Assembly (NCBI GenBank): GCA_964618625.1
Contig: CAZUBI010000001.1
Coordinates: 396,901 to 460,900, forward strand
From: an uncultured Candidatus Saccharibacteria bacterium
Lineage (GTDB): Bacteria; Patescibacteriota; Minisyncoccia; UBA6257
Direction: 5' to 3'
Length of the DNA stretch: 64,000 nucleotides
The notes below the pieces were generated by a model that worked only from the letters and a program-made list of their open reading frames with translations, made no database searches and was not told where the DNA came from. Within the stretch, counting starts at the first letter, position 1, and each line of letters begins with the position of its first letter. The translations under genes were made by a program, and so were the position numbers. This document shows positions 9,828 through 56,163 of this stretch, piece after piece.

Positions 9828-9901
9828 GCCCTCGTAGCTCAACTGGATAGAGTGTGTGGCTTCGGACCACAAGGTTGCAGGTTCGAATCCTGCCGAGGGC
9901 A
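9828..9901 (+). tRNA. tRNA-Arg(UCG)
   Basis: GCCCTCGTAGCTCAACTGGATAGAGTGTGTGGCTTCGGACCACAAGGTTGCAGGTTCGAATCCTGCCGAGGGCA. Anticodon loop CTTCGGA. No CCA encoded. Confidence 0.75.
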
Positions 9902-9919
9902 CGACAATAAATTATTTGA

Positions 9920-9992
9920 GCCCCCATAGCTCAATTGGTAGAGCAGATTCCTCTTAAGAATAAGGTTCCAGGTTCGAGTCCTGGTGGGGGCA
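9920..9992 (+). tRNA. tRNA-Lys(CUU)
   Basis: GCCCCCATAGCTCAATTGGTAGAGCAGATTCCTCTTAAGAATAAGGTTCCAGGTTCGAGTCCTGGTGGGGGCA. Anticodon loop CTCTTAA. Confidence 0.75.
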
Positions 9993-10061
9993 CTATTTGA
10001 AAGGATAAATTTTAGAATAATTTTATTTGTTTTTGTACTTTTGTTGTGATAGAATGGAATA

Positions 10062-11096
10062 ATGGCTGGATTAGTACGGAATAATAAATATTGTCAGTTG
10101 GAAAAAAGAGTTATTTTTCATATTGGCGGACAATATCGATTTTTATTAAAAGCGAAAAAGAATCTAAAATTATCTTGGTTTTTGTTCGCACATGAAATCA
10201 GAGTAAATCAAAGAACACTTAATGATTGGAAAAGAGAGAAATATTCTTTGCCTTACGATATTTTTCAAAAAATTTCTAAGATTACAAAATCGAAAATACC
10301 ACATGGAATAAAGATTAAAGAACCTTTTTGGTATGTTCGTAAAGGAGCTAAGCTTGGTGGTATTGCTGTTTATAAAAAATATGGAAAAATTGGTGGCGAC
10401 CCAGAGATACGAAAACAGAAATGGTTAGAGTGGTGGGAAAGAGAAGGTAAATATAATCCAAAAGAATATTTTGTAACAAAGGAAATTATTGCACCACAAA
10501 AAGGAGTTGATTTATCTGAATTTGTTGGAATTATGATTGGAGATGGCGGGATTACTAATAAACAAGTTGTTGTAACCCTTAATAATAAAACAGATAAACT
10601 TTATAGCGTTTTTGTAGAAGATCTTATAAATAGACTTTTTGGGGTAAAAGCAAGTATGAATATTAGAAAAGAAGAATCTGTTGTTAATATTACTGTTTCA
10701 CGCATACGCTTAGTAGCTTTTTGCAAATCGATAGGTCTTAAGATTGGAAATAAGTTAAAACAAAATTTGGATATTCCTGCATGGGTTAAAAAAGATAAAA
10801 GTTTTAAAGTATCTTGTTTAAGGGGTTTAGTAGATACAGATGGTTGTTTTTTTGTTGAGCGTCATAAAATTAATAAGAAAAAATACTGTTATCCTAGATT
10901 GTCTTTCGTAAGTTATTCTAAACAACTCCGTGCTTCAGCTTTTAAGATATTAAAAGAATTAGAATTTTCGCCTAACATTCGTAGTAATAGAAGCGTGCAA
11001 TTAGAAAATATAGCAGACATTAAAAAATATTTTAATTTAGTAGGTACTCATAATCCAAAACATAAAGAGAGATTTAGATTATTTTTGGAGGGGTAG
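10062..11096 (+). CDS. HTH (Xre-like) + double-motif LAGLIDADG homing-endonuclease-like protein
   Basis: 344 aa; LAGLIDADG-type motifs FVGIMIGDGGI and LRGLVDTDGCF with acidic residues retained; N-terminal HTH-like segment LSWFLFAHEIRVNQRTLNDWKREK. The 3' end overlaps the first 10 nt of tRNA-Ser(TGA). Confidence 0.7.
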   Translation: MAGLVRNNKYCQLEKRVIFHIGGQYRFLLKAKKNLKLSWFLFAHEIRVNQRTLNDWKREKYSLPYDIFQKISKITKSKIPHGIKIKEPFWYVRKGAKLGGIAVYKKYGKIGGDPEIRKQKWLEWWEREGKYNPKEYFVTKEIIAPQKGVDLSEFVGIMIGDGGITNKQVVVTLNNKTDKLYSVFVEDLINRLFGVKASMNIRKEESVVNITVSRIRLVAFCKSIGLKIGNKLKQNLDIPAWVKKDKSFKVSCLRGLVDTDGCFFVERHKINKKKYCYPRLSFVSYSKQLRASAFKILKELEFSPNIRSNRSVQLENIADIKKYFNLVGTHNPKHKERFRLFLEG

Positions 11097-11175
11097 GGAG
11101 TGGTTATCCCAAGCGGTTTTGAAAACCGCTATTCGTTTACACGGATCGTGGGTTCGAATCCCACCCCCTCCGCCA
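11087..11175 (+). tRNA. tRNA-Ser(UGA), long variable arm, CCA encoded
   Basis: GGAGGGGTAGGGAGTGGTTATCCCAAGCGGTTTTGAAAACCGCT...CGTGGGTTCGAATCCCACCCCCTCCGCCA. The ORF-track protein at 11100 reads through this tRNA as a false N-terminus. Confidence 0.85.
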
Positions 11176-11186
11176 TATTTATTAAT

Positions 11187-12668
11187 ATGAAAGATAAAAG
11201 CAAACAATTAGGTTTGGTTTCTCGTCCTCCGATTATTGTAGTTTTGGGACATGTTGATCATGGCAAGACAAGTCTTTTAGATTATATAAAAAAAACTAAA
11301 ATTGCTGAAAAAGAATCAGGTGGAATTACTCAACATATTGGTGCTTATGAAATAGAGATAAAAGATAAAAAGATTACTTTTATTGATACTCCTGGGCATG
11401 AAGCATTTTCTAAAATTCGTTCTAGGGGAGCAAAAGTCGCTGATATTGCTCTTTTAGTAGTTGCCGCTGATGAAGGGGTAAAAGTGCAAACTAAAGAATC
11501 ATTAAAAGATATAAAAAAAGTTCAAATTCCTTATATCGTAGCAATTACTAAAATTGATAAGGAAGGGACTAATTTAGAAAAAGTAAAAAACGAATTATCA
11601 GAAGCAGGCGTATTATTAGAAGGCCGTGGTGGCGATATTCCTTTTGTAGGCGTTTCTTCAAAAACAGGGCAAGGCATTGATGAACTTTTAGAACTTATTC
11701 TTTTGTTATCAGAGATGCAGGAATTAAAAGCTGATCCAAACAATCAAGCCATAGGATTTGTAATAGAGTCTCATCTAGATAGGTCTAGAGGAAATACAGC
11801 TAGCTTAATTATTACTGATGGAACTTTACATCTTAAAGATGAAATTATAGTGGATCAGATAAAAATAGGAAAGGTAAAGATTCTAGAAAATTTCAAAGGG
11901 GAATCTATTTCAGAGGCAACTTTTTCTTCACCTGTAAGAGTTCTTGGCTTTGAAACATCAGTACCAGTTGGAGCGAAACTTTCAGCAGGTGGTCTTAAAG
12001 ATAAAACAATGGCATCTGCTCAAGAATCAAAAACAATTGGTAAGGAATTAGGAAGTCACGATTCAAAAATTAAAATTCCTCTTATTATTAAAAGTGATGC
12101 TTCTGGTTCGGGCGAGGCGTTAGAACAAGTTATAGTGCAATTAGGAAAAAAGAACGATTGGCTTTTTTTCCTTTTGAAAAACGAGACTGGTGATATCTCT
12201 GAAAGTGATTTTAAGATAATACCTTTAGGGAAAACTTTAATCATAGGTTTTCGAGTTAGAAAAAGACCTGAAATAAATAATATTCTTTTAACTAATAAGA
12301 ATTTACTATTGATTGAAGGGGATATTATTTATGAAATAGAAAATAAAATTAAAGAATTGGTAGAAAATAAATTTGTAAAAAAACCAACTGAAGAAATACT
12401 TGGGAAATTGGAAGTTTTAGCTGTGTTTAACCCTATAAAAGGTAGTCAATTAATTGGAGGGAAAGTTGTTGAAGGTAATGTTCAAAATAAAATTCGTTTT
12501 CGTTTAGTGCGTAATGAAGAAATTATAAGCCAAGGAAAAATTTTAAACTTACAAAAGAATAAGGTAGATATAACAGAAGTAAAGATTGGAGGAGAATGTG
12601 GTTTATTAATAAATTGCCCAGAAAAAGCAGAACAAGGAGATTTACTTGAATTTTTTAGAAAAATTTAA
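11187..12668 (+). CDS. infB: Translation initiation factor IF-2 (short form; start reassigned to ATG 11187 after the tRNA)
   Basis: G domain [17 protein letters not shown]...[10 protein letters not shown]...ITKIDK, followed by the beta-barrel and C-terminal IF-2 domains. The first 29 ORF-track codons are a translated tRNA-Ser. Confidence 0.85.
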
Positions 12669-12683
12669 TATGATTATACTAAC

Positions 12684-12755
12684 GGCCTAGTGGCGAAGTG
12701 GTAACGCGACTGTCTGCAAAACAGTTATGCGTCGGTTCGAATCCGACCTAGGCCT
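12684..12755 (+). tRNA. tRNA-Cys(GCA)
   Basis: GGCCTAGTGGCGAAGTGGTAACGCGACTGTCTGCAAAACAGTTATGCGTCGGTTCGAATCCGACCTAGGCCT. Anticodon loop CTGCAAA; discriminator U. Confidence 0.85.
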
Positions 12756-12782
12756 CAAGATTTACCAGTTGGTAAATTAATT

Positions 12783-12870
12783 GCCGGGGTGGTGGAATTG
12801 CTAGACACGAAGGATTTAAAATCCTTTGGAGGAATACTCCGTGCGGGTTGGAGTCCCGCCCTCGGCACCA
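12783..12870 (+). tRNA. tRNA-Leu(UAA), long variable arm, CCA encoded
   Basis: GCCGGGGTGGTGGAATTGCTAGACACGAAGGATTTAAAATCCTT...GCGGGTTGGAGTCCCGCCCTCGGCACCA. Confidence 0.85.
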
Positions 12871-12881
12871 TTTGAAATTTT

Positions 12882-13634
12882 ATGGGAGGTTTATTTACAA
12901 AACATATTAATCAAGATTTTTTTAAAACTTGGACATATGAAATGAGTTATGTTTTGGGTTATATTACTGCTGATGGTTGTATTACCGTGAGTAAAGATAG
13001 AACAAAACACCCTTTTTCATTAAATATTACTTCTATTGATAAAAAACATTTATATAGGATTAGAAAAGTATTAGAATCTGAGCATAAAGTTGGTAGGAAG
13101 TCAGCAGGGAGATTAAATGCTTTTGCCTATCAATTAGTCATACGCAACCCAGTTATAACTAGAGACTTGATGGATTTGGGAATATTACCTAGAAAGACTT
13201 ATAATTTAGGACCTATTGAAGTTCCGAAGAAATATTTCCCTGACTTTGTTCGTGGATTTTTTGATGGAGACGGAACAGTTTATATTTATAAAGTTAATGG
13301 AACACGACAAATTAAAGCTGGCTTCGTAAGTTCAAGTTTGCCTTTTATAACGAGATTTAATCAACAGCTTTGCGAAAGTCTAAATATTTCTATAAAATCT
13401 ATTCACAAAACAATTGATAGACGAAAAAATAGGATGATTCAATATAATATTTGTTTCTATATTGATGATTGTGAGAAATTGAGCGACTTTATGTATGGAA
13501 ATAATTCAACTTTATTTTTGCCTCGTAAATATAGAATTTTTAAGAAATGGAAGTCAATGAAAAGACGACATTATGTAAAGCAAAATTATCCCTCAAAAAT
13601 CGGCTGGCGGTTAAATGAAAAAGTCACTGTTTAA
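12882..13634 (+). CDS. LAGLIDADG homing-endonuclease-like protein (two motifs)
   Basis: 250 aa; motifs VLGYITADGCI and FVRGFFDGDGTV. It starts 12 nt after tRNA-Leu(UAA). Confidence 0.75.
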   Translation: MGGLFTKHINQDFFKTWTYEMSYVLGYITADGCITVSKDRTKHPFSLNITSIDKKHLYRIRKVLESEHKVGRKSAGRLNAFAYQLVIRNPVITRDLMDLGILPRKTYNLGPIEVPKKYFPDFVRGFFDGDGTVYIYKVNGTRQIKAGFVSSSLPFITRFNQQLCESLNISIKSIHKTIDRRKNRMIQYNICFYIDDCEKLSDFMYGNNSTLFLPRKYRIFKKWKSMKRRHYVKQNYPSKIGWRLNEKVTV

Positions 13635-13700
13635 AGAATTAACGAAATATTAATTAAAGAATTTATCGTTAAAGTAAGATTTGGAATTGTATAACAATAC

Positions 13701-13733
13701 AAAAACACCCTGTCTTTGGCAGGATGTTTTTAA
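13701..13733. terminator. Bidirectional rho-independent-type terminator
   Basis: AAAAACACCCTG-tctttgg-CAGGATGTTTTT: 11-bp stem with one mismatch, flanked by an A-run and a T-run. It lies between convergent genes 12882..13634(+) and 13759..14262(-). Confidence 0.5.
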
Positions 13734-13758
13734 TTATCTTGTTATTAATATTAGGTAG

Positions 13759-14262
13759 TTATCTCAATATTTCCATTATTGTTTCTTTAATTCCGAACTC
13801 TTTTGCCGATTCTCTGTCAGGAAACCAGATATCTACTCTCGTATCAGTAAAACGATTATGCATTTTGTCGTCAACAGTAAAAATTTTATCCCTAAATAAT
13901 TCAGGGAATCTTACTTTTGTTCCAAATGGTAGAAAATTAGAGGCGACAATTCCATCATAAACCCAAGCGCCAGAAGCAGTGATGAATGGAGTATCATCTG
14001 TTTGGTCAGGAGTGGAAGAATAGGCTGTTACAGTAATTTTTCTCGTTTCAATTGAAGGCTGAAGAGAATTTGCTGTAGTAAAGAAAGTATCACTTGAATT
14101 ATGGTAAAATTCTTCATCAGTGCTAAGAATTTCTTGTTCAGAGCTATTAATAATAGTGGATGGCGAGCCTTCTACTATTAATCCTGACAAAGGGCTAAAA
14201 AAGCTAAAACTTAAGACCATAGCAAGGATTCCAGCTTTCGTGACTCTATTAAGAATATTCAT
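13759..14262 (-). CDS. Secreted 3D-domain (MltA-like, Asp-Asp-Asp) protein
   Basis: 167 aa; N-terminal signal peptide; C-terminal TVTAYSS..DQTDDTPFITASGAWV..FGTKVRFPE...TVDD..TRVDIW resembles a 3D domain. Confidence 0.5.
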   Translation of the reverse strand: MNILNRVTKAGILAMVLSFSFFSPLSGLIVEGSPSTIINSSEQEILSTDEEFYHNSSDTFFTTANSLQPSIETRKITVTAYSSTPDQTDDTPFITASGAWVYDGIVASNFLPFGTKVRFPELFRDKIFTVDDKMHNRFTDTRVDIWFPDRESAKEFGIKETIMEILR

Positions 14263-14331
14263 AATATTTTAATTCCGCATTAAAAAACTCCCTTCTTGGG
14301 AGACTTTTTAGATTCTATCATATAAATAACT

Positions 14332-14408
14332 TTTGTCAACCCCCACACTATAACAAGGACTGGTTTTACCCCCACAACACCTATGCATAAGTGTGGGGGT
14401 TGATCAAA
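14332..14408. repeat. 18-bp perfect inverted repeat (TTTGTCAACCCCCACACT / AGTGTGGGGGTTGATCAAA) with a 40-nt spacer
   Basis: Left arm 14332-14349 is exactly complementary to right arm 14390-14408. The spacer contains a partial copy ACCCCCACAACACC. It sits in the divergent intergenic region between the 3D-domain gene and tRNA-Ser(GCT). Confidence 0.6.
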
Positions 14409-14523: not shown

Positions 14524-14613
14524 GGAGGAGTGCGCCGAATGGTAAGGCAGCAGATTGCTAATCTGTGACGGTGTAAAAGCCGTTTGCGGGTTCGACTCCC
14601 GCCTCCTCCGCCA
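14524..14613 (+). tRNA. tRNA-Ser(GCU), long variable arm, CCA encoded
   Basis: GGAGGAGTGCGCCGAATGGTAAGGCAGCAGATTGCTAATCTGTGACGG...GCGGGTTCGACTCCCGCCTCCTCCGCCA. Confidence 0.85.
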
Positions 14614-19145: not shown

Positions 19146-20954
19146 ATGAATAAATTAGCTAAGTCTTTTTTAATAGTGTTTCTTCTTTTTTTGGCTCTTT
19201 CTTTACTTTTTTCTGCTATAGAAGGCACGTCTTTAGAGACAAAAAAAGTAAGTTTTTCTGAAGCAATTCAAGCTTTAAGAGAACAAGAAATAACAAAAAT
19301 TGTAATTCATCCTAGCCGCATTAATATTTTTCTTCAGGATGATACTGTTTTAATTACAGAGAGGGAAGTAAACGTTTCTTTTCCAGAAACACTTCAAAGT
19401 TTTGGTTTTTCTTCAGAAGAAATATCTTCTTTAAATATAGAAATTGAAAGTGATGGTGCGTCAGCTATCTTCTTTACTATAATATTGCCGATACTTATTC
19501 CGATTCTTTTAATAGGATTTTTGTTGTTCTACTCTCTTCGTCGTGCTAACCAAGGAGCAATGCAGATTTTTTCTTTTTCTCGTTCTAATATTAAATTATT
19601 TTCTCCTTCTAAAGACAGAATTACTTTTAAAGACGTGGCTGGTTTGAAAGAAAGCAAGGAAGAATTAAAAGAAGTTGTTGAGTTTTTAAAAACTCCAAAG
19701 AAATTCCATGATTTAGGAGCTAAAATTCCTCGTGGCGTTCTTCTAATGGGGCCGCCGGGCTCGGGAAAAACTTTATTAGCCCGTGCAGTGGCAGGGGAGG
19801 CTAAAGTACCTTTTTTTCATATTTCTGGATCAGAATTTGTTGAAATGTTTGTTGGAGTTGGCGCAAGCAGAGTGAGGGATACTTTTGCTACAGCTAAAAA
19901 AGCAGCCCCTTCAATTTTGTTTATTGATGAAATAGACGCTATTGGTAGAGTAAGAGGCGCTGGTATTGGTGGAGGTCATGATGAAAGGGAACAAACATTG
20001 AACCAGATTTTAGTTGAAATGGATGGTTTTGACAGAGATACTAAAACCATAGTTATTGCGGCGACAAATAGACCAGATGTTTTAGACCCTGCTTTATTAC
20101 GCCCAGGGCGTTTTGATAGACGGGTGATTTTAGATTTACCTAGTATTAATGATAGGGAAAAGATATTAGAAATTCATGTTAAGGGGAAAAGTTTGGCTCC
20201 ATTAGTTAATTTAAGAGAAATAGCAGAACGAACTCCAGGCTTTTCTGGTGCTGATTTAGCTAATTTAACAAATGAGTCTGCTATTTTGGCAGCTAGAAGG
20301 AATCAAAAAACTATTACTCAGAAGGAATTATTAGATTCTATAGAAAAAGTTATTTTAGGGCCAGAAAGAAGAAGTAGGGTTTTAACAAAGAAAGAAAAAG
20401 AAATTACTGCTTATCATGAAGCTGGTCATGCTTTAATATCCGCTTTACTTCCTAATACAGCTCGTGTAAGAAAAATTTCTATTATAACGCGCGGAAGAGC
20501 AGCTGGTTATACAATGCGAATGCCAACTGAAGAAAAATATATGAAAACTCGCTCAGAATTTTTAGATGATTTGTGTGCTCTTTTAGGAGGATATGCAGCT
20601 GAAGAGATTAAATTTAAAGAAATATCAACAGGTGCGGCGAATGATTTAAAAGAAGCAACAGATATAGCAAGAGGGATAGTAACTAAATATGGGATGAGTA
20701 AGAAAATGGGACCAATTTCTTTTGGTAGGACAGAAGAATTGATATTTTTAGGCAGAGATATTTCTACTGAGAGACAATATTCAGAAGAAACTGCAGCGAA
20801 AATAGATAAAGAAGTAATTAGTATTCTTAAAAAGTGTTACAATAACACAAAACGGTTACTAAAGAAAAATATAGATAAGCTGGAAAAAGTTACTAAAGAA
20901 TTGATGAAGAAAGAAACTTTGGAAAAAGAAGAATTTGAAAAATTGGTAAAGTAG
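19146..20954 (+). CDS. ftsH: ATP-dependent zinc metalloprotease FtsH
   Basis: 602 aa; N-terminal TM segments, AAA Walker A GPPGSGKT, second region of homology, zinc motif HEAGHAL. Confidence 0.95.
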
Positions 20955-20965
20955 CTAGTTTTTAT

Positions 20966-20994
20966 TTGTTCTTTAAAAATATTAGTGGTATAAT
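20966..20994 (+). promoter_or_regulatory. Putative promoter (TTGTTC-N17-TGgTATAAT) for the 21041 gene, overlapped by the inverted repeat ATGAAC-N8-GTTCAT (20993-21012)
   Basis: Extended -10 TGgTATAAT at 20986-20994. The 6-bp inverted repeat spans the predicted +1 region and is candidate operator-like. Confidence 0.35.
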
Positions 20995-21040
20995 GAACCT
21001 GGGACTGTTCATGAAATAGATATAATCTAAAGGTTTAATT

Positions 21041-21715
21041 ATGGCACGTTTTAAAGATCGCGAAAAAGCGATAATTTTGAGAAAGCAAGGGATGAGTTAT
21101 AGCCAGATAAAGAAGATTTTAAAAGTATGTAAAGGTACTTTAAGCACTTGGCTCAGGAATTATCCCCTTCCAGAAGCGAGAATAAGACAATTAAGGGATT
21201 GGAGTGAACAAAGAATTGAAAGATGCCGTGAAACAAAGAGAAAAAAGAAGGAAAGAAGACTAGAGGGTTTTTATCAAGAACAAAAAGAATTTATTTTTCC
21301 TTTTAATAAACGTGAATTATATCTCGCAGGTTTATTTCTCTATTGGGGAGAGGGAGCAAAAACTAGAATGACTGAATTGTCTATTTCCAATACAGATCCT
21401 TCTGTCATTAAACTTTTCCTTTTTTGGTTTACAAAATCTTTGCTAGTTCCAAAAGAAAGAATTAAAATTGGATTGCATTTGTATAAAGATATGAATATTA
21501 GTAAAGAGATAAATTTTTGGTCAGATATTTTGAAAATTCCTCTAAAACAATTTTATAAACCTTATATAAAAAAAAGTTTACTCAAATCTATAAATCATAA
21601 AGGAGGATTTGGTCATGGTACTTGTAATATAAGAGTTTCAGATGCAAGGCTTTCAGAGAAGATATTGATGGCTCTAAAAGTAATTAGCGATAAATATAAT
21701 AAAATGCGCACGTAG
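21041..21715 (+). CDS. HTH + divergent LAGLIDADG-like (LAGLFLYWGEGAK) protein
   Basis: 224 aa; N-terminal HTH-like KQGMSYSQIKKILKVCKGTLSTWL; single LAGLIDADG-like motif YLAGLFLYWGEGAK with E replacing D. The 3' end overlaps tRNA-Ile by 10 nt. Confidence 0.5.
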   Translation: MARFKDREKAIILRKQGMSYSQIKKILKVCKGTLSTWLRNYPLPEARIRQLRDWSEQRIERCRETKRKKKERRLEGFYQEQKEFIFPFNKRELYLAGLFLYWGEGAKTRMTELSISNTDPSVIKLFLFWFTKSLLVPKERIKIGLHLYKDMNISKEINFWSDILKIPLKQFYKPYIKKSLLKSINHKGGFGHGTCNIRVSDARLSEKILMALKVISDKYNKMRT

Positions 21716-21781
21716 CTCAGTGGTAGAGCAGGGTCCTTATAAGGCCAAGGTTCGCAGGTTCGATCCCTGCCGTGCGCACCA
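21706..21781 (+). tRNA. tRNA-Ile(UAU) (rare AUA-decoding anticodon), CCA encoded
   Basis: GCGCACGTAGCTCAGTGGTAGAGCAGGGTCCTTATAAGGCCAAGGTTCGCAGGTTCGATCCCTGCCGTGCGCACCA. Anticodon loop CTTATAA (U33, UAU, A37). Confidence 0.6.
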
Positions 21782-21783
21782 GA

Positions 21784-21857
21784 GGGTGATTAGCTCAGTG
21801 GTTTAGAGTGCTTCGTTGACATCGAAGAGGTCGCTGGTTCAATTCCAGCATCACCCA
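21784..21857 (+). tRNA. tRNA-Val(GAC)
   Basis: GGGTGATTAGCTCAGTGGTTTAGAGTGCTTCGTTGACATCGAAGAGGTCGCTGGTTCAATTCCAGCATCACCCA. Anticodon loop TTGACAT. Confidence 0.85.
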
Positions 21858-21888
21858 CAAAATTGCCTAGTATTAGGTGATTTTTTAT

Positions 21889-55401: not shown

Positions 55402-56163
55402 ATGAATAGTAATTTCCTTCAGCCATTTTTATACAAAGACAGGGCTTTGTTTTTGTCTTATGATCATGGCTTTGAACATGGCCCAAAAGACTTAATAGGT
55501 GAAAGCATAGACCCAGAATATATTTTAGATTTAGCAGTAAAAGGAGACTACACAGGGATTATTTTACAAAAAGGAATTGCGGAAAAATATTATACAGGTA
55601 CTAAGTATGAGAGAACAGTCCCGCTGATTTTGAAAATTAATGGTAAGACTAATATTCCACAAACTACTGATCCTTATTCTTCAATTAATTGTTCAGTAGA
55701 TTATGCTAAGAAATTAGGGGCTAAAGCAGTGGGCTATACTATTTATTTAGGAAGTAAATATGAAGAGAAAATGTTTTCGGATTTTGGAAAGATTCAAGAA
55801 CAAGCTCATAAATTAAAAATGGCAGCAATTGCTTGGATATATCCTCGAGGTTCAGCAGTAGAAGATGAAACCTCTCCAGAAATGACAGCTTATGCTGCCA
55901 GAGTCGGGTTGGAATTAGGAGCTGATATGATAAAGATAAAATATTGTGGTTCTGAAGAAACATTTAGAAAAGCAGTGCAAGCAGCTGGAAAAACAAAAGT
56001 CATTTTGTCAGGAGGACCGAAAATAGAAGACGAGGAAATTCTAAAAATAATTAAATCTGTTATGAAAGCTGGAGCAACAGGAATAGCTGTAGGACGTAAT
56101 GTTTTTCAGCACCAAGATTCATTAGCTATGACTGAAAAAATAAAGAAAATTGTTTTTGATTAA
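55402..56163 (+). CDS. Class I fructose-bisphosphate aldolase (DhnA/archaeal type)
   Basis: 253 aa; LSYDHGFEHGP, Schiff-base Lys region IKIKY, and C-terminal GATGIAVGRNVFQ typical of the DhnA family. Confidence 0.65.
   Translation: MNSNFLQPFLYKDRALFLSYDHGFEHGPKDLIGESIDPEYILDLAVKGDYTGIILQKGIAEKYYTGTKYERTVPLILKINGKTNIPQTTDPYSSINCSVDYAKKLGAKAVGYTIYLGSKYEEKMFSDFGKIQEQAHKLKMAAIAWIYPRGSAVEDETSPEMTAYAARVGLELGADMIKIKYCGSEETFRKAVQAAGKTKVILSGGPKIEDEEILKIIKSVMKAGATGIAVGRNVFQHQDSLAMTEKIKKIVFD

What the first reader, a model, noticed from the sequence alone, without database searches (positions are those of the whole stretch)
9828..13634. Two LAGLIDADG homing-endonuclease-like genes interleaved with a tRNA cluster (Arg-Lys-[HTH-LAGLIDADG]-Ser-infB-Cys-Leu-[LAGLIDADG])
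ORF 10062..11096 (Xre-type HTH plus two LAGLIDADG motifs, acidic residues intact) ends inside the first 10 nt of tRNA-Ser(UGA). ORF 12882..13634 (two motifs) begins 12 nt after tRNA-Leu(UAA). A third, more divergent HTH-LAGLIDADG-like gene at 21041..21715 likewise overlaps tRNA-Ile(UAU) by 10 nt. None of the tRNAs appears interrupted by an intron, so these are free-standing genes using tRNA flanks as landing sites, or tRNA-associated regulators or maturases. The consistent N-terminal HTH fusion reverses the WhiA architecture. Three copies in 12 kb is a strong association.
Basis: partly seen in the sequence, partly recalled or inferred. Interest (0 to 1): 0.65.

Follow-up and report, generated by a model that had tools for sequence, protein, structure and literature searches.

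The report
Selfish endonuclease genes parked beside tRNAs
Three small, unrelated genes in this ultra-small (CPR/Patescibacteria-type) bacterial genome each sit against one particular tRNA gene; two are certainly LAGLIDADG DNA-cutting enzymes, and all three behave like selfish mobile genes that come and go between close relatives, two of them apparently taking their neighbouring tRNA gene along.

Summary
P1 (10062-11096) is an N-terminal HTH fused to a two-domain LAGLIDADG endonuclease, by Pfam and by fold match to I-Tsp061I. P2 (12882-13634) is a plain two-motif LAGLIDADG enzyme with no HTH. P3 (21041-21715) has an HTH plus an invariant GEG-motif domain; it matched no LAGLIDADG model or structure, with only a weak co-linear profile match to P1. 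The three are not paralogs and no intron is present. Comparative data decide the case. Each gene is a clean indel at a tRNA boundary, missing from relatives 92-94% identical. Catalytic residues are invariant. In 75 of 77 metagenomic loci a P1-family gene lies directly 5' of tRNA-Ser (UGA or GCU), whatever lies upstream. P2 always follows tRNA-Leu(UAA), and P3 always precedes tRNA-Ile(UAU). The tRNAs next to P1 and P2 are foreign alleles: tRNA-Leu is 72% identical to a close P2-less relative but 93% to a distant P2-bearing genome. A P2 pseudogene and an empty site keeping a P2-type tRNA allele also occur. Best reading: free-standing homing endonuclease genes that use tRNA boundaries as landing sites and co-convert the tRNA, mechanistically like phage T4 SegB. 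Cleavage and target sites are untested.

The parts
9828..9993 (+). tRNA-Arg(UCG) and tRNA-Lys(CUU): the host left flank of the P1 insertion. In P1-less relatives tRNA-Lys is followed after 8-11 nt by tRNA-Ser(UGA).
9994..11150 (+). P1 element as delimited against a close P1-less relative: leader, P1 ORF and most of the linked tRNA-Ser allele. It replaces 71 nt of L092.
   Evidence: blastn boundaries; sequence comparison
10027..10061 (+). Promoter-like leader conserved in the P1 family: TTGTTT, 17 nt, TGATAGAAT, GGAATA, then ATG. The -10 box is 6 nt from the start codon, so the mRNA is probably leaderless (inferred).
   Evidence: the same motif in 8 of the 9 other P1 loci shown, of both tRNA-target types; L101 differs; the generic promoter scan was not above chance
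10062..11096 (+). P1: 344-aa protein with an Xre-like HTH (about residues 23-75), a helical linker, and a two-domain LAGLIDADG endonuclease core (about 149-343). Catalytic D161 and D260.
11087..11175 (+). tRNA-Ser(UGA), P1-linked allele. It is 99% identical to the allele in P1-bearing L088 but 75% identical to the allele of P1-less close relatives. Its first 10 nt encode the last P1 codons and the stop codon.
11187..12668 (+). infB (short-form IF-2, 493 aa) and, at 12684-12756, tRNA-Cys(GCA): host genes between the two elements, 92% identical in protein to L092.
12783..12870 (+). tRNA-Leu(UAA), P2-linked allele with a G4 acceptor stem and a C19/G56 elbow. It is 93% identical to the allele of a distant P2-bearing genome and 72% identical to that of close P2-less relatives.
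12869..13700 (+). P2 insertion as delimited against L094 (94.5% nt identity on the upstream side; the downstream flank, window 13701-14339, is 84.5% identical). These 832 nt are replaced by 2 nt in L094, between the tRNA-Leu 3' end and the terminator hairpin.
12882..13634 (+). P2: 250-aa two-motif LAGLIDADG endonuclease without an HTH. Catalytic D31 and D130. An 11-nt spacer after the tRNA leaves no room for a promoter, so co-transcription with the tRNA is inferred.
13700..13732 (.). Bidirectional terminator-like hairpin that directly follows tRNA-Leu(UAA) in P2-less relatives. It is the right boundary of the P2 insertion.
20953..21703 (+). P3 insertion as delimited against L008 (ftsH 92% identical). 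These 751 nt are replaced by 1 nt in L008, between the ftsH stop codon and tRNA-Ile(UAU).
21041..21715 (+). P3: 224-aa protein with a homeodomain-like HTH (about residues 1-40), a long helix, and a C-terminal alpha/beta domain with invariant G97, Y101, E104, G105, K107 and N117. Its nuclease class is unresolved.
21706..21858 (+). tRNA-Ile(UAU) and tRNA-Val(GAC), to the right of P3. The tRNA-Ile allele is essentially the same in P3-bearing and P3-less relatives.

Best explanation
P1, P2 and P3 are three independent free-standing homing-endonuclease-type selfish genes. Each is inserted in the spacer at the boundary of one specific tRNA gene: P1 on the 5' side of tRNA-Ser(UGA), P2 on the 3' side of tRNA-Leu(UAA), and P3 on the 5' side of tRNA-Ile(UAU).

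Shown here: P1 and P2 are LAGLIDADG endonucleases with intact catalytic residues. All three are clean single-gene indels that are absent from very close relatives. Each family keeps its link to one tRNA species across many genomes. The tRNA genes next to P1 and P2 are replaced alleles that resemble those of distant genomes carrying the same gene.

Inferred mechanism: when DNA carrying the element meets an element-free genome, for example after DNA uptake, the enzyme cuts the element-free allele in or next to the tRNA gene. The break is repaired from the element-bearing copy. This copies in the endonuclease gene and co-converts the adjoining tRNA, whose sequence differences would protect it from re-cutting. 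This is intronless homing, as for phage T4 SegB in its tRNA cluster.

No intron or intein is needed, because the insertion lies in a spacer and leaves the tRNA intact. P2 has no room for a promoter and presumably rides on tRNA transcription. P1 and P3 carry their own promoter-like leader plus an HTH, which may add DNA recognition or autoregulation (inferred). P3 shows the same population behaviour, but its catalytic class is not established.
For: Identity of the proteins:
- P1 and P2 pass the Pfam LAGLIDADG cutoffs.
- The P1 model (pLDDT 87.7) matches I-Tsp061I, VMA inteins, the bI3 maturase and I-AniI.
- P2 matches phage endonuclease phrog_4645 (2e-37) and intron ORFs of phages.
- Catalytic residues are invariant: P1 D161 and D260 in 120/120 and 80-81/81; P2 D31 and D130 in 121/121; P3 E104 in 120/121.

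Patchy presence among relatives:
- L092 (infB 92%, ftsH 93%) lacks P1 and P2.
- L094 (94.5% nt identity) has P1 (98%) but no P2.
- L008 (ftsH 92%) lacks P2 and P3.
- L009 and L010 lack P1 and P2.
- Boundaries are exact.

Incongruence with host phylogeny:
- P2 is 66% identical in L088 (infB 85%) but 72% in L090 (infB 47%).
- P2 is 65% against infB 46% in CP179888; P3 is 72% against ftsH 58%.

Target linkage:
- 75 of 77 assessable P1-family loci (72 clusters at 90% identity) have tRNA-Ser immediately downstream on the same strand, with variable upstream context. The protein tree largely follows the UGA or GCU target.
- P2 lies 11-46 nt after tRNA-Leu(UAA) in 6 independent contexts.
- P3 lies directly before tRNA-Ile(UAU) in 7 independent contexts (window/L092, L009, L005, L178, L182, L184, L187), one of them with different upstream genes.

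Co-conversion:
- Control tRNAs between the window and L092 are 96-100% identical (Leu-GAG 91%).
- tRNA-Ser(UGA) is 75% identical to L092 but 99% to P1-bearing L088.
- tRNA-Leu(UAA) is 72% identical to L092 but 93% to distant P2-bearing CP179888.

Life-cycle states:
- The P2 of L088 has a stop at codon 2.
- L094 has the same P2-type tRNA-Leu allele but no P2.

Generality:
- L124 has an HNH endonuclease ORF at the 5' edge of tRNA-Leu(UAA).
- L178 has a P2-like ORF before tRNA-Leu(GAG).
- P3-like paralogs lie before tRNA-Ser(CGA), tRNA-Lys and tRNA-Gln.

Precedent: SegB (PMC2330249).
Against: - No cleavage activity, target site or immunity has been shown; all mechanism steps are inferred.
- P2 and P3 are almost always in the same synteny (infB-rbfA-tRNA-Leu; ftsH-tRNA-Ile). 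Vertical descent with repeated loss could therefore explain part of the pattern.
- The families are strongly conserved over their whole length, and only one pseudogene was seen. This could equally indicate a host-beneficial role.
- Across all loci, linked and unlinked tRNA-Ser alleles are not cleanly separable, so no general 'immune allele' signature exists.
- The numerical signal for tRNA-Ser between distant hosts is weak (79% against 75%).
- Two tRNAs next to none of these genes in the window also differ between close relatives: Ser-GCU 78% and Val-GAC 75% against L092. tRNA alleles therefore turn over for other or past reasons too.
- Most P1, P2 and P3 loci were fetched with the gene itself as query, so they say nothing about how common the gene is.
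- P3 has no recognised nuclease fold.
- How two alleles meet in these bacteria is unknown.
Confidence: 0.75

Rival explanations
1. The genes are domesticated host proteins, either tRNA-gene-specific transcription regulators or processing factors derived from homing endonucleases (in the way WhiA is). They are kept next to the tRNA they serve.
For: - The link to one tRNA species is strict.
- Full-length conservation is strong and lengths are uniform across hundreds to thousands of homologs.
- P1 and P3 have HTH domains.
- P3 is more conserved than FtsH between the same genomes.
- WhiA appears among the structural matches of P1 (rank 44).
Against: - The genes are absent from the closest relatives, which keep the same tRNAs (L092, L094, L008).
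- A pseudogene exists in L088.
- Catalytic acidic residues are invariant, whereas, from general knowledge, WhiA has lost them.
- An unrelated HNH endonuclease occupies the same kind of position in L124.
- There is no intron for a maturase to act on.
Confidence: 0.13
2. The genes are ordinary accessory genes inherited vertically and lost repeatedly. The tRNA adjacency is just conserved synteny in compact, tRNA-dense genomes, and no homing is involved.
For: - P2 and P3 are nearly always in the same gene neighbourhood.
- Other housekeeping ORFs in the window also abut tRNAs.
- Divergence of P1 among the P1-bearing close relatives (80-98%) is about that of host genes.
Against: - P1 keeps tRNA-Ser downstream while upstream contexts differ (tRNA-Lys, tRNA-Ser(GCU), tRNA-Arg on the opposite strand, or no tRNA).
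- P3 keeps tRNA-Ile with different upstream genes in L187.
- A simple deletion would leave the linked tRNA allele, but P1-less relatives carry a different tRNA-Ser allele.
- tRNA-Leu is 93% identical to that of a genome whose infB is 46% identical.
- P2 identities contradict host distances.
Confidence: 0.08
3. The genes are remnants of larger integrative elements (integrase-borne islands or prophages that target tRNA genes), or of tRNA introns whose ribozyme has been lost.
For: From general knowledge, tRNA genes are classic integration sites. Group I introns with endonuclease genes occur in Patescibacteria tRNAs (PMC13011429).
Against: - Each insertion is 0.75-1.16 kb with a single ORF, no integrase and no repeat of the tRNA end.
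- The tRNAs are uninterrupted and no intron model matches.
- The described Patescibacteria tRNA introns sit at position 35/36 and carry HNH genes, not flanking LAGLIDADG genes.
Confidence: 0.03

Closest known systems
Phage T4 SegB and other free-standing seg/mob homing endonuclease genes (intronless homing)
   Same: The endonuclease gene sits in an intergenic spacer inside a tRNA gene cluster and is absent from close relatives at the same place. Inheritance of the gene is coupled to replacement of the neighbouring tRNA region. [quoted passage not shown]
   Different: SegB is a GIY-YIG enzyme of a virus and spreads in mixed infections. Here the genes are LAGLIDADG (plus one unclassified family) in cellular chromosomes of Patescibacteria, and each family is tied to one tRNA species across hundreds of lineages. 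Cleavage is untested here.
Monomeric two-motif LAGLIDADG homing endonucleases of introns and inteins (I-Tsp061I, I-DmoI, I-AniI, PI-PfuI; the CPR rRNA-insertion enzymes of PMC11270868)
   Same: Same fold, two motifs and conserved catalytic acidic residues. Patchy, mobile-type distribution.
   Different: These genes are not inside an intron, intein or rRNA insertion. P1 carries an additional N-terminal Xre-like HTH and helical linker of about 145 residues. P1 has no phage relatives.
WhiA (domesticated LAGLIDADG plus HTH regulator of Gram-positive bacteria)
   Same: It combines a two-domain LAGLIDADG scaffold with an HTH, and it appears among the structural matches of P1 (8dy9_I).
   Different: The HTH is C-terminal in WhiA and N-terminal in P1. 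From general knowledge, WhiA lacks the catalytic residues and is a universally conserved, single-copy gene in its lineages. P1 keeps the catalytic residues and is patchy.
Free-standing LAGLIDADG ORFs of fungal and algal organelle genomes
   Same: They are LAGLIDADG genes outside introns in intergenic regions of compact, tRNA-rich genomes (literature list).
   Different: They are organellar. No family-wide specificity for the boundary of one tRNA species, and no co-travelling tRNA allele, turned up in the papers I searched.

Membership tests
LAGLIDADG homing endonuclease (two-motif, monomeric) | Matches a curated LAGLIDADG profile above its cutoff | tested here: met
   P1: LAGLIDADG_3 27.0 bits (cutoff 22.5). 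P2: LAGLIDADG_3 43.7 and LAGLIDADG_1 39.6 bits. P3: no hit, nor for 81 superfamily members, so this feature is NOT met for P3.
LAGLIDADG homing endonuclease (two-motif, monomeric) | Two LAGLIDADG helices, each ending in a conserved catalytic Asp or Glu | tested here: met
   P1 GDG (D161) and DTDG (D260); P2 ADG (D31) and DGDG (D130). They are invariant in 120-121 homologs and in 81 metagenomic P1 genes. P3 has one motif-like helix ending in an invariant GEG.
LAGLIDADG homing endonuclease (two-motif, monomeric) | Alpha-beta-beta-alpha-beta-beta-alpha fold, duplicated | tested here: met
   P1 model against PDB: 2dch E=1.8e-11, with 118 hits at E<=1e-3, dominated by LAGLIDADG enzymes among the 50 listed. 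P2 was not modelled. P3 is inconclusive: no significant hit and hhalign to P1 at 20-43%.
LAGLIDADG homing endonuclease (two-motif, monomeric) | Site-specific cleavage of a long (about 14-22 bp or more) target in the element-free allele | not testable with these tools
   Needs enzyme assays on the empty-site DNAs defined.
LAGLIDADG homing endonuclease (two-motif, monomeric) | Housed in a self-splicing intron or intein | tested here: not met
   The tRNAs are intact and no intron family matches. The ORFs lie in spacers. This is the usual housing rather than a requirement, so the genes are free-standing members.
Free-standing homing endonuclease gene with intronless homing (SegB type) | Single endonuclease gene inserted between conserved genes and absent at the same site in close relatives | tested here: met
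   Exact indels: window 12869-13700 against L094; 9994-11150 against L092; 20953-21703 against L008. Presence/absence tables.
Free-standing homing endonuclease gene with intronless homing (SegB type) | Co-conversion of flanking markers together with the gene | tested here: met
   The linked tRNA-Ser and tRNA-Leu alleles are replaced, while control tRNAs (Arg, Cys, Ile, Lys) are 96-100% identical to the close relative. tRNA-Leu is 93% identical to the allele of a distant P2-bearing genome. This is met for P1 and P2 as a sequence pattern, not as an observed event. It is not seen for P3, whose tRNA-Ile is the same in P3-bearing and P3-less genomes.
Free-standing homing endonuclease gene with intronless homing (SegB type) | The enzyme cuts the element-free allele near the insertion point, and its own allele is immune | not testable with these tools
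   Only indirect evidence: allele differences lie next to the insertion.
Free-standing homing endonuclease gene with intronless homing (SegB type) | Gain, decay and loss states in populations | tested here: met
   For P2: intact (window), stop at codon 2 (L088), an empty site with a P2-type tRNA allele (L094), and empty sites with the other allele (L092, L008).
WhiA | LAGLIDADG scaffold followed by a C-terminal HTH, with catalytic residues lost, universally conserved in the lineage | tested here: not met
   P1 has an N-terminal HTH and P2 has none. Catalytic residues are invariant. Distribution is patchy.
Intron maturase or tRNA group I intron ORF | ORF lies inside a group I intron that interrupts the tRNA | tested here: not met
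   Rfam finds only tRNAs in 64 kb and ARAGORN finds uninterrupted tRNAs.
Integrase-borne island at a tRNA gene | Integrase gene and a direct repeat of the tRNA 3' end flanking a multi-gene insert | tested here: not met
   The inserts are 751-1157 nt with one ORF each. No tRNA-end repeat is visible at the junctions.

The most novel reading that the evidence does not exclude
tRNA-gene boundaries are the main landing pads for a whole guild of free-standing homing endonuclease genes in Patescibacteria. The guild would include HTH-LAGLIDADG, plain LAGLIDADG, HNH, and the very large HTH-GEG family of P3, which would then be a new or extremely divergent half-LAGLIDADG class of homing endonuclease (at least 3,794 clusters at 50% identity). 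These genes would drive turnover of the tRNA genes themselves, acting as a natural 'cleave and replace' drive on tRNA alleles. That could explain odd tRNAs such as the C19:G56 elbow-swapped tRNA-Leu as target-site escape variants.
Probability: 0.35. Interest if true: 0.8.

Novelty: new variant of a known kind. Interest (0 to 1): 0.68.

Why it matters
**New place and target for a known mechanism.** Homing endonuclease genes in bacteria are known mainly from introns and inteins. In Patescibacteria they are known from rRNA insertions and a few tRNA introns. Here, whole protein families live as free-standing genes at the edges of specific tRNA genes and seem to carry the tRNA allele with them. If confirmed, this shows that intronless homing, known from T-even phages, operates on cellular chromosomes of a major bacterial radiation.

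**tRNA evolution.** It offers an explanation for sharp tRNA allele differences between near-identical genomes.

**Possible tools.** It would supply hundreds of natural LAGLIDADG enzymes whose likely targets (tRNA genes) can be read from context. That could be useful for meganuclease engineering.

**An unannotated family.** It points to a very large uncharacterised family (P3) that may be a new nuclease class.

**Annotation.** 'HTH domain protein' genes next to tRNAs in these genomes are probably mobile elements rather than regulators.

Tried and rejected
- **Paralogy of the three genes.** phmmer among all window ORFs gives nothing significant.
- **Hidden introns or ribozymes.** Rfam at gathering threshold finds only tRNAs.
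- **More members among other tRNA-adjacent ORFs of the window.** These are DeoC, adenylosuccinate synthetase, an S1 protein and others, all ordinary. hhalign of 55402-56160 against P3 gives 3.8%.
- **A universal 'immune' tRNA-Ser signature.** Linked and unlinked alleles overlap across lineages. My first linkage rule there also mis-scored tRNA-Ser(UGA) genes that merely follow a linked tRNA-Ser(GCU).
- **The C19:G56 elbow swap as a general mark of P2-linked tRNA-Leu.** It occurs only in the window and CP179888 alleles.
- **Generic promoter scan.** Not above shuffled expectation.
- **infB-anchored scan of species genomes.** It returned only three close and about six mid-distance CPR relatives; the rest were unrelated phyla.
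- **Defence-system membership.** Only weak 'homing endonuclease' models matched.
- **Phage origin of P1.** No phage match.
- **Literature.** I found no paper describing free-standing LAGLIDADG genes flanking tRNAs in CPR bacteria. The search covers open-access text only.

Full report

The window is low-GC (32.6%). Its closest database relatives are Patescibacteria/Parcubacteria (Nealsonbacteria, Paceibacteria). The three ORFs exist as described.
- The P1 stop codon TAG is nucleotides 8-10 of tRNA-Ser(UGA).
- P2 starts 12 nt after the last base of tRNA-Leu(UAA).
- P3 overlaps the 5' end of tRNA-Ile(UAU).
- The listed GTG start of infB at 11100 overlaps the tRNA. The real start is the ATG at 11187.

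**2. What are the proteins?**

- **P1** passes Pfam LAGLIDADG_3 and has a weak Xre-type HTH. A confident AlphaFold model (pLDDT 87.7) matches two-domain LAGLIDADG enzymes. The best match is the archaeal intron enzyme I-Tsp061I (E=1.8e-11, TM 0.76 of the target), followed by VMA inteins, the bI3 maturase and I-AniI. WhiA is only at rank 44 (profile search).
- **P2** passes two LAGLIDADG models. It belongs to a phage 'endonuclease' family (phrog_4645, 2e-37) and has 28-31% identical relatives in phages, some annotated as intron ORFs. It has no HTH.
- **P3** gives only sub-threshold HTH matches.
  - Its profile finds nothing in the PDB.
  - Its confident model (pLDDT 88.9) has no significant Foldseek match in PDB or BFVD.
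  - None of 81 diverse superfamily members hits a LAGLIDADG model.
  - The only link is a weak profile-profile alignment to P1 (probability 20%, rising to 43% with a more diverse profile). It is co-linear: HTH on HTH, 'LAGLFLYWGEG...SNTD' on 'FVGIMIGDGG...NNKTD', and the next helix on the next helix. The predicted order of secondary-structure elements is compatible with one LAGLIDADG-like domain carrying an insertion. That is my reading, not a test.
  - P3 is therefore an HTH protein with an invariant G97/Y101/E104/G105/K107/N117 core of unresolved class.
- The three proteins are not paralogs of each other.
- The catalytic acidic residues are invariant in all three families.

**3. Is tRNA adjacency meaningful?**

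Within the window alone it is not. There are 17 tRNAs in 64 kb, and ordinary genes (DeoC, adenylosuccinate synthetase, an S1 protein) also abut tRNAs. The comparative evidence is what counts.

I fetched 80 metagenomic loci with a P1-family alignment. In 75 of the 77 that can be assessed, a tRNA-Ser gene lies immediately downstream on the same strand.
- In 37 loci it is tRNA-Ser(UGA), usually overlapped by the last 10-37 nt of the ORF.
- In 38 loci it is tRNA-Ser(GCU), usually 10-30 nt after the stop codon.
- The upstream neighbour varies: tRNA-Ser(GCU), tRNA-Arg on the other strand, tRNA-Lys, tRNA-Val, or no tRNA.
- These loci represent 72 clusters at 90% identity.
- The protein tree largely follows the target: one clade of 30 UGA-linked genes, one of 33 GCU-linked genes, and one mixed clade.

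P2 homologs lie 11-46 nt after tRNA-Leu(UAA) in six independent contexts. P3 orthologs lie directly before tRNA-Ile(UAU) in seven independent contexts (window/L092, L009, L005, L178, L182, L184, L187). One of these, L187, has upstream genes other than ftsH.

More distant P3-superfamily members sit directly before tRNA-Ser(CGA), tRNA-Lys(CUU) and tRNA-Gln(UUG). A P2-like ORF precedes tRNA-Leu(GAG). In L124 a bona fide HNH endonuclease ORF (Pfam 29.2 bits) ends inside the 5' end of tRNA-Leu(UAA).

**4. Mobile or domesticated?**

Relatives anchored on housekeeping genes, or fetched through one of the three genes, show patchy presence.

| Relative | Similarity to the window | P1 | P2 | P3 |
|---|---|---|---|---|
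| L094 | 94.5% nt | present (98%) | absent | not covered |
| L092 | infB 92%, ftsH 93% | absent | absent | present (95%) |
| L088 | infB 85% | present (80%) | pseudogene (stop at codon 2) | not covered |
| L008 | infB 83%, ftsH 92% | unknown (contig end) | absent | absent |
| L009 | infB 72% | absent | absent | present (79%) |
| L010 | infB 70% | absent | apparently absent (contig ends about 650 nt after tRNA-Leu) | not covered |
| L090, L174 | infB 47% | not seen in locus | present (72%, 67%) | absent |
| CP179888 (complete Nealsonbacteria genome) | infB 46% | present (57%), other neighbourhood | present (65%) | absent at the ftsH/tRNA-Ile junction |

Nucleotide alignments give exact indels.
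- Window 12869-13700 is replaced by 2 nt in L094.
- Window 9994-11150 replaces 71 nt of L092.
- Window 20953-21703 is replaced by 1 nt in L008.

Identities contradict host distances. P2 is 66% identical in the genome with infB 85% but 72% in one with infB 47%. P3 is 72% where FtsH is 58%.

**5. The tRNAs travel with P1 and P2.**

Between the window and L092, four control tRNAs are 96-100% identical (Arg-GCG 96, Arg-UCG 100, Cys 100, Ile-UAU 99, Lys 97), and Leu-GAG is 91%. Two further tRNAs not next to these genes are not conserved (Ser-GCU 78%, Val-GAC 75%); see section 9. The linked tRNAs break the pattern.
- tRNA-Ser(UGA) is 75% identical to L092 but 99% identical to the P1-bearing L088.
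- tRNA-Leu(UAA) is 72% identical to L092 but 93% identical to the P2-bearing CP179888 genome. The other tRNAs of that genome are 70-89% identical to the window's.
- All P1-less relatives from 70% to 92% infB identity share one tRNA-Ser(UGA) allele. The window-type D-arm (GGGAGYGGTTRTCCC) occurs only next to P1 genes.
- All P2-linked tRNA-Leu genes have G at acceptor position 4. Most P2-less ones have C.
- The exception is L094, whose allele is identical to that of L088 although P2 is gone and the terminator follows directly.

Together with the L088 pseudogene, this gives four states at one site: empty, occupied and intact, occupied and decaying, and empty with the element-type tRNA. That is the pattern expected from the gain, decay and loss cycle of homing endonuclease genes.

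For P3 there is no such allele replacement.

Caveat: across all lineages, linked and unlinked tRNA-Ser alleles are not cleanly separable.

**6. How it most likely works.**

Shown: endonuclease identity (P1, P2), intact active sites, exact single-gene indels at tRNA boundaries, tRNA-specific linkage, allele replacement, and a pseudogene.

Inferred: the enzyme cuts the element-free allele in or beside the tRNA gene. Recombinational repair from an element-bearing copy then installs the gene and converts the neighbouring tRNA, whose differences protect it. This is the intronless homing of T4 seg/mob genes. [quoted passage not shown]

P2 lies 11 nt from the tRNA-Leu 3' end, next to the T-arm, with a conserved short spacer and no room for a promoter. 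Expression by read-through from the tRNA is likely.

P1-family genes carry a conserved leader: TTGTTT, 17 nt, TGnTAnAAT, GGAATA, then ATG (window 10027-10061). This suggests an own promoter and a leaderless mRNA. P3 likewise has conserved TATAAT-like boxes upstream. The HTH of P1 and P3 may extend DNA recognition or repress their own promoter; that is speculation.

**7. Rivals.**

- A host function (regulator or processing factor) fits the strong conservation and the HTH domains. It does not fit absence from the nearest relatives, retained catalytic residues, the pseudogene, or the HNH gene in the same kind of position.
- Vertical descent with loss does not explain the replaced tRNA alleles or the variable upstream contexts.
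- Integrase islands and introns are excluded by the size and content of the inserts and by the Rfam result.

**8. Comparison with what is known.**

In the literature I could search, LAGLIDADG genes of CPR bacteria are described inside rRNA insertions (PMC11270868). tRNA introns of Patescibacteria are described at position 35/36, with HNH genes (PMC13011429 and its preprint). Neither mentions free-standing genes flanking tRNAs. Free-standing LAGLIDADG ORFs are known from organelles.

I therefore file P1 and P2 as members of the LAGLIDADG family that work like SegB-type free-standing homing genes. This is a new variant: cellular chromosomes, family-wide specificity for one tRNA boundary, a co-travelling tRNA allele, and an HTH-first architecture in P1. 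P3 is not filed under LAGLIDADG.

**9. Side observations.**

- The P2-linked tRNA-Leu has C19 and G56 in place of the near-universal G19:C56 elbow pair. The covariance-model alignment confirms the positions, and the L092 allele is canonical. It could be a target-escape variant with a compensating change, but it is not general among P2-linked alleles.
- tRNA-Ser(GCU) and tRNA-Val(GAC) also differ sharply between close relatives. This may be a footprint of past invasions.

**10. Verdict.**

The 'landing site' interpretation is supported and extended. The mechanism is inferred, not shown. Confidence is 0.75 for the homing reading overall, about 0.85 that P1 and P2 are mobile endonuclease genes, and about 0.5 that P3 is itself an endonuclease.

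Noticed in passing
window 12783-12870 (also L004 5901-5988): tRNA-Leu(UAA) has C at position 19 and G at position 56, a swap of the near-universal G19:C56 elbow pair. The covariance-model alignment confirms the positions. The allele in the close relative L092 is canonical.
   Followed up: partly
L008 1603-1676, L009 4212-4287, L004 5826-5898 (tRNA-Cys); L013 and L101 (tRNA-Leu(UAA)): Several CPR tRNAs have the T-loop TGCAA(A/G)T instead of TTCGA(A/G)T, that is, G at position 55, together with D-loops lacking GG. This is another non-canonical elbow.
   Followed up: no
window 11087-11096: The P1 stop codon lies inside tRNA-Ser (nt 8-10). If the two are co-transcribed, RNase P cleavage at the tRNA 5' end would remove the stop codon and leave a non-stop P1 mRNA. 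This could limit expression of the endonuclease.
   Followed up: no
window 14524-14613 and 21784-21858: tRNA-Ser(GCU) and tRNA-Val(GAC) are only 78% and 75% identical to those of L092, although other tRNAs are 96-100% identical. The window's tRNA-Ser(GCU) resembles alleles that elsewhere lie next to GCU-type P1 genes (for example L132 and L167). It may be a relic of a past invasion.
   Followed up: partly
L124 5760-6257: A 158-aa HNH endonuclease ORF (Pfam HNH 29.2 bits) lies between tRNA-Cys and tRNA-Leu(UAA) in a close relative and ends inside the first bases of tRNA-Leu. The window has only a 26-nt spacer there.
   Followed up: yes
L088 14764-15381; L178 12157-12813 and 14564-15235; L101 1511-2179; L108 1864-2475; L155 5025-5678: Further P3-like and P2-like genes lie at other tRNA boundaries (Ser-GCU/rpsO spacer, Leu-GAG, Val-UAC/Phe, Ser-CGA, Lys-CUU, Gln-UUG). 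The corresponding window sites are empty.
   Followed up: partly
L004 1-1696, L088 19867-21035 (ftsH); L088 1-1845, L178 1694-5503 (gyrA): Relatives carry inteins in ftsH and gyrA; those of L004 and L088 also have LAGLIDADG_3 domains, while only the intein-splicing domain is on record for the L178 gyrA. The window's ftsH (19146-20954, 602 aa) is intein-free. These genomes are rich in homing elements of several kinds.
   Followed up: no
L176 11098-12138: A reverse-transcriptase gene (RVT_1, 346 aa) lies immediately after the P2 homolog in one genome. It may be a group II intron or retron-type element at the same hotspot.
   Followed up: no
window 21706-21781: The AUA codon is read by a tRNA-Ile with anticodon UAU, conserved across all relatives examined, rather than by the usual lysidine-modified CAU tRNA.
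   Followed up: no
window 11100-11186: The mechanical ORF call for infB starts at a GTG inside tRNA-Ser. The real start is the ATG at 11187. IF-2 here is a short 493-aa form.
   Followed up: yes
P0417, P0420, P0434, P0437, P0463, P0464, P0467: Some P3-superfamily proteins are 290-576 aa long with 2-4 tandem copies of the module. This would fit a protein that normally acts as a dimer, as single-domain LAGLIDADG enzymes do.
   Followed up: no
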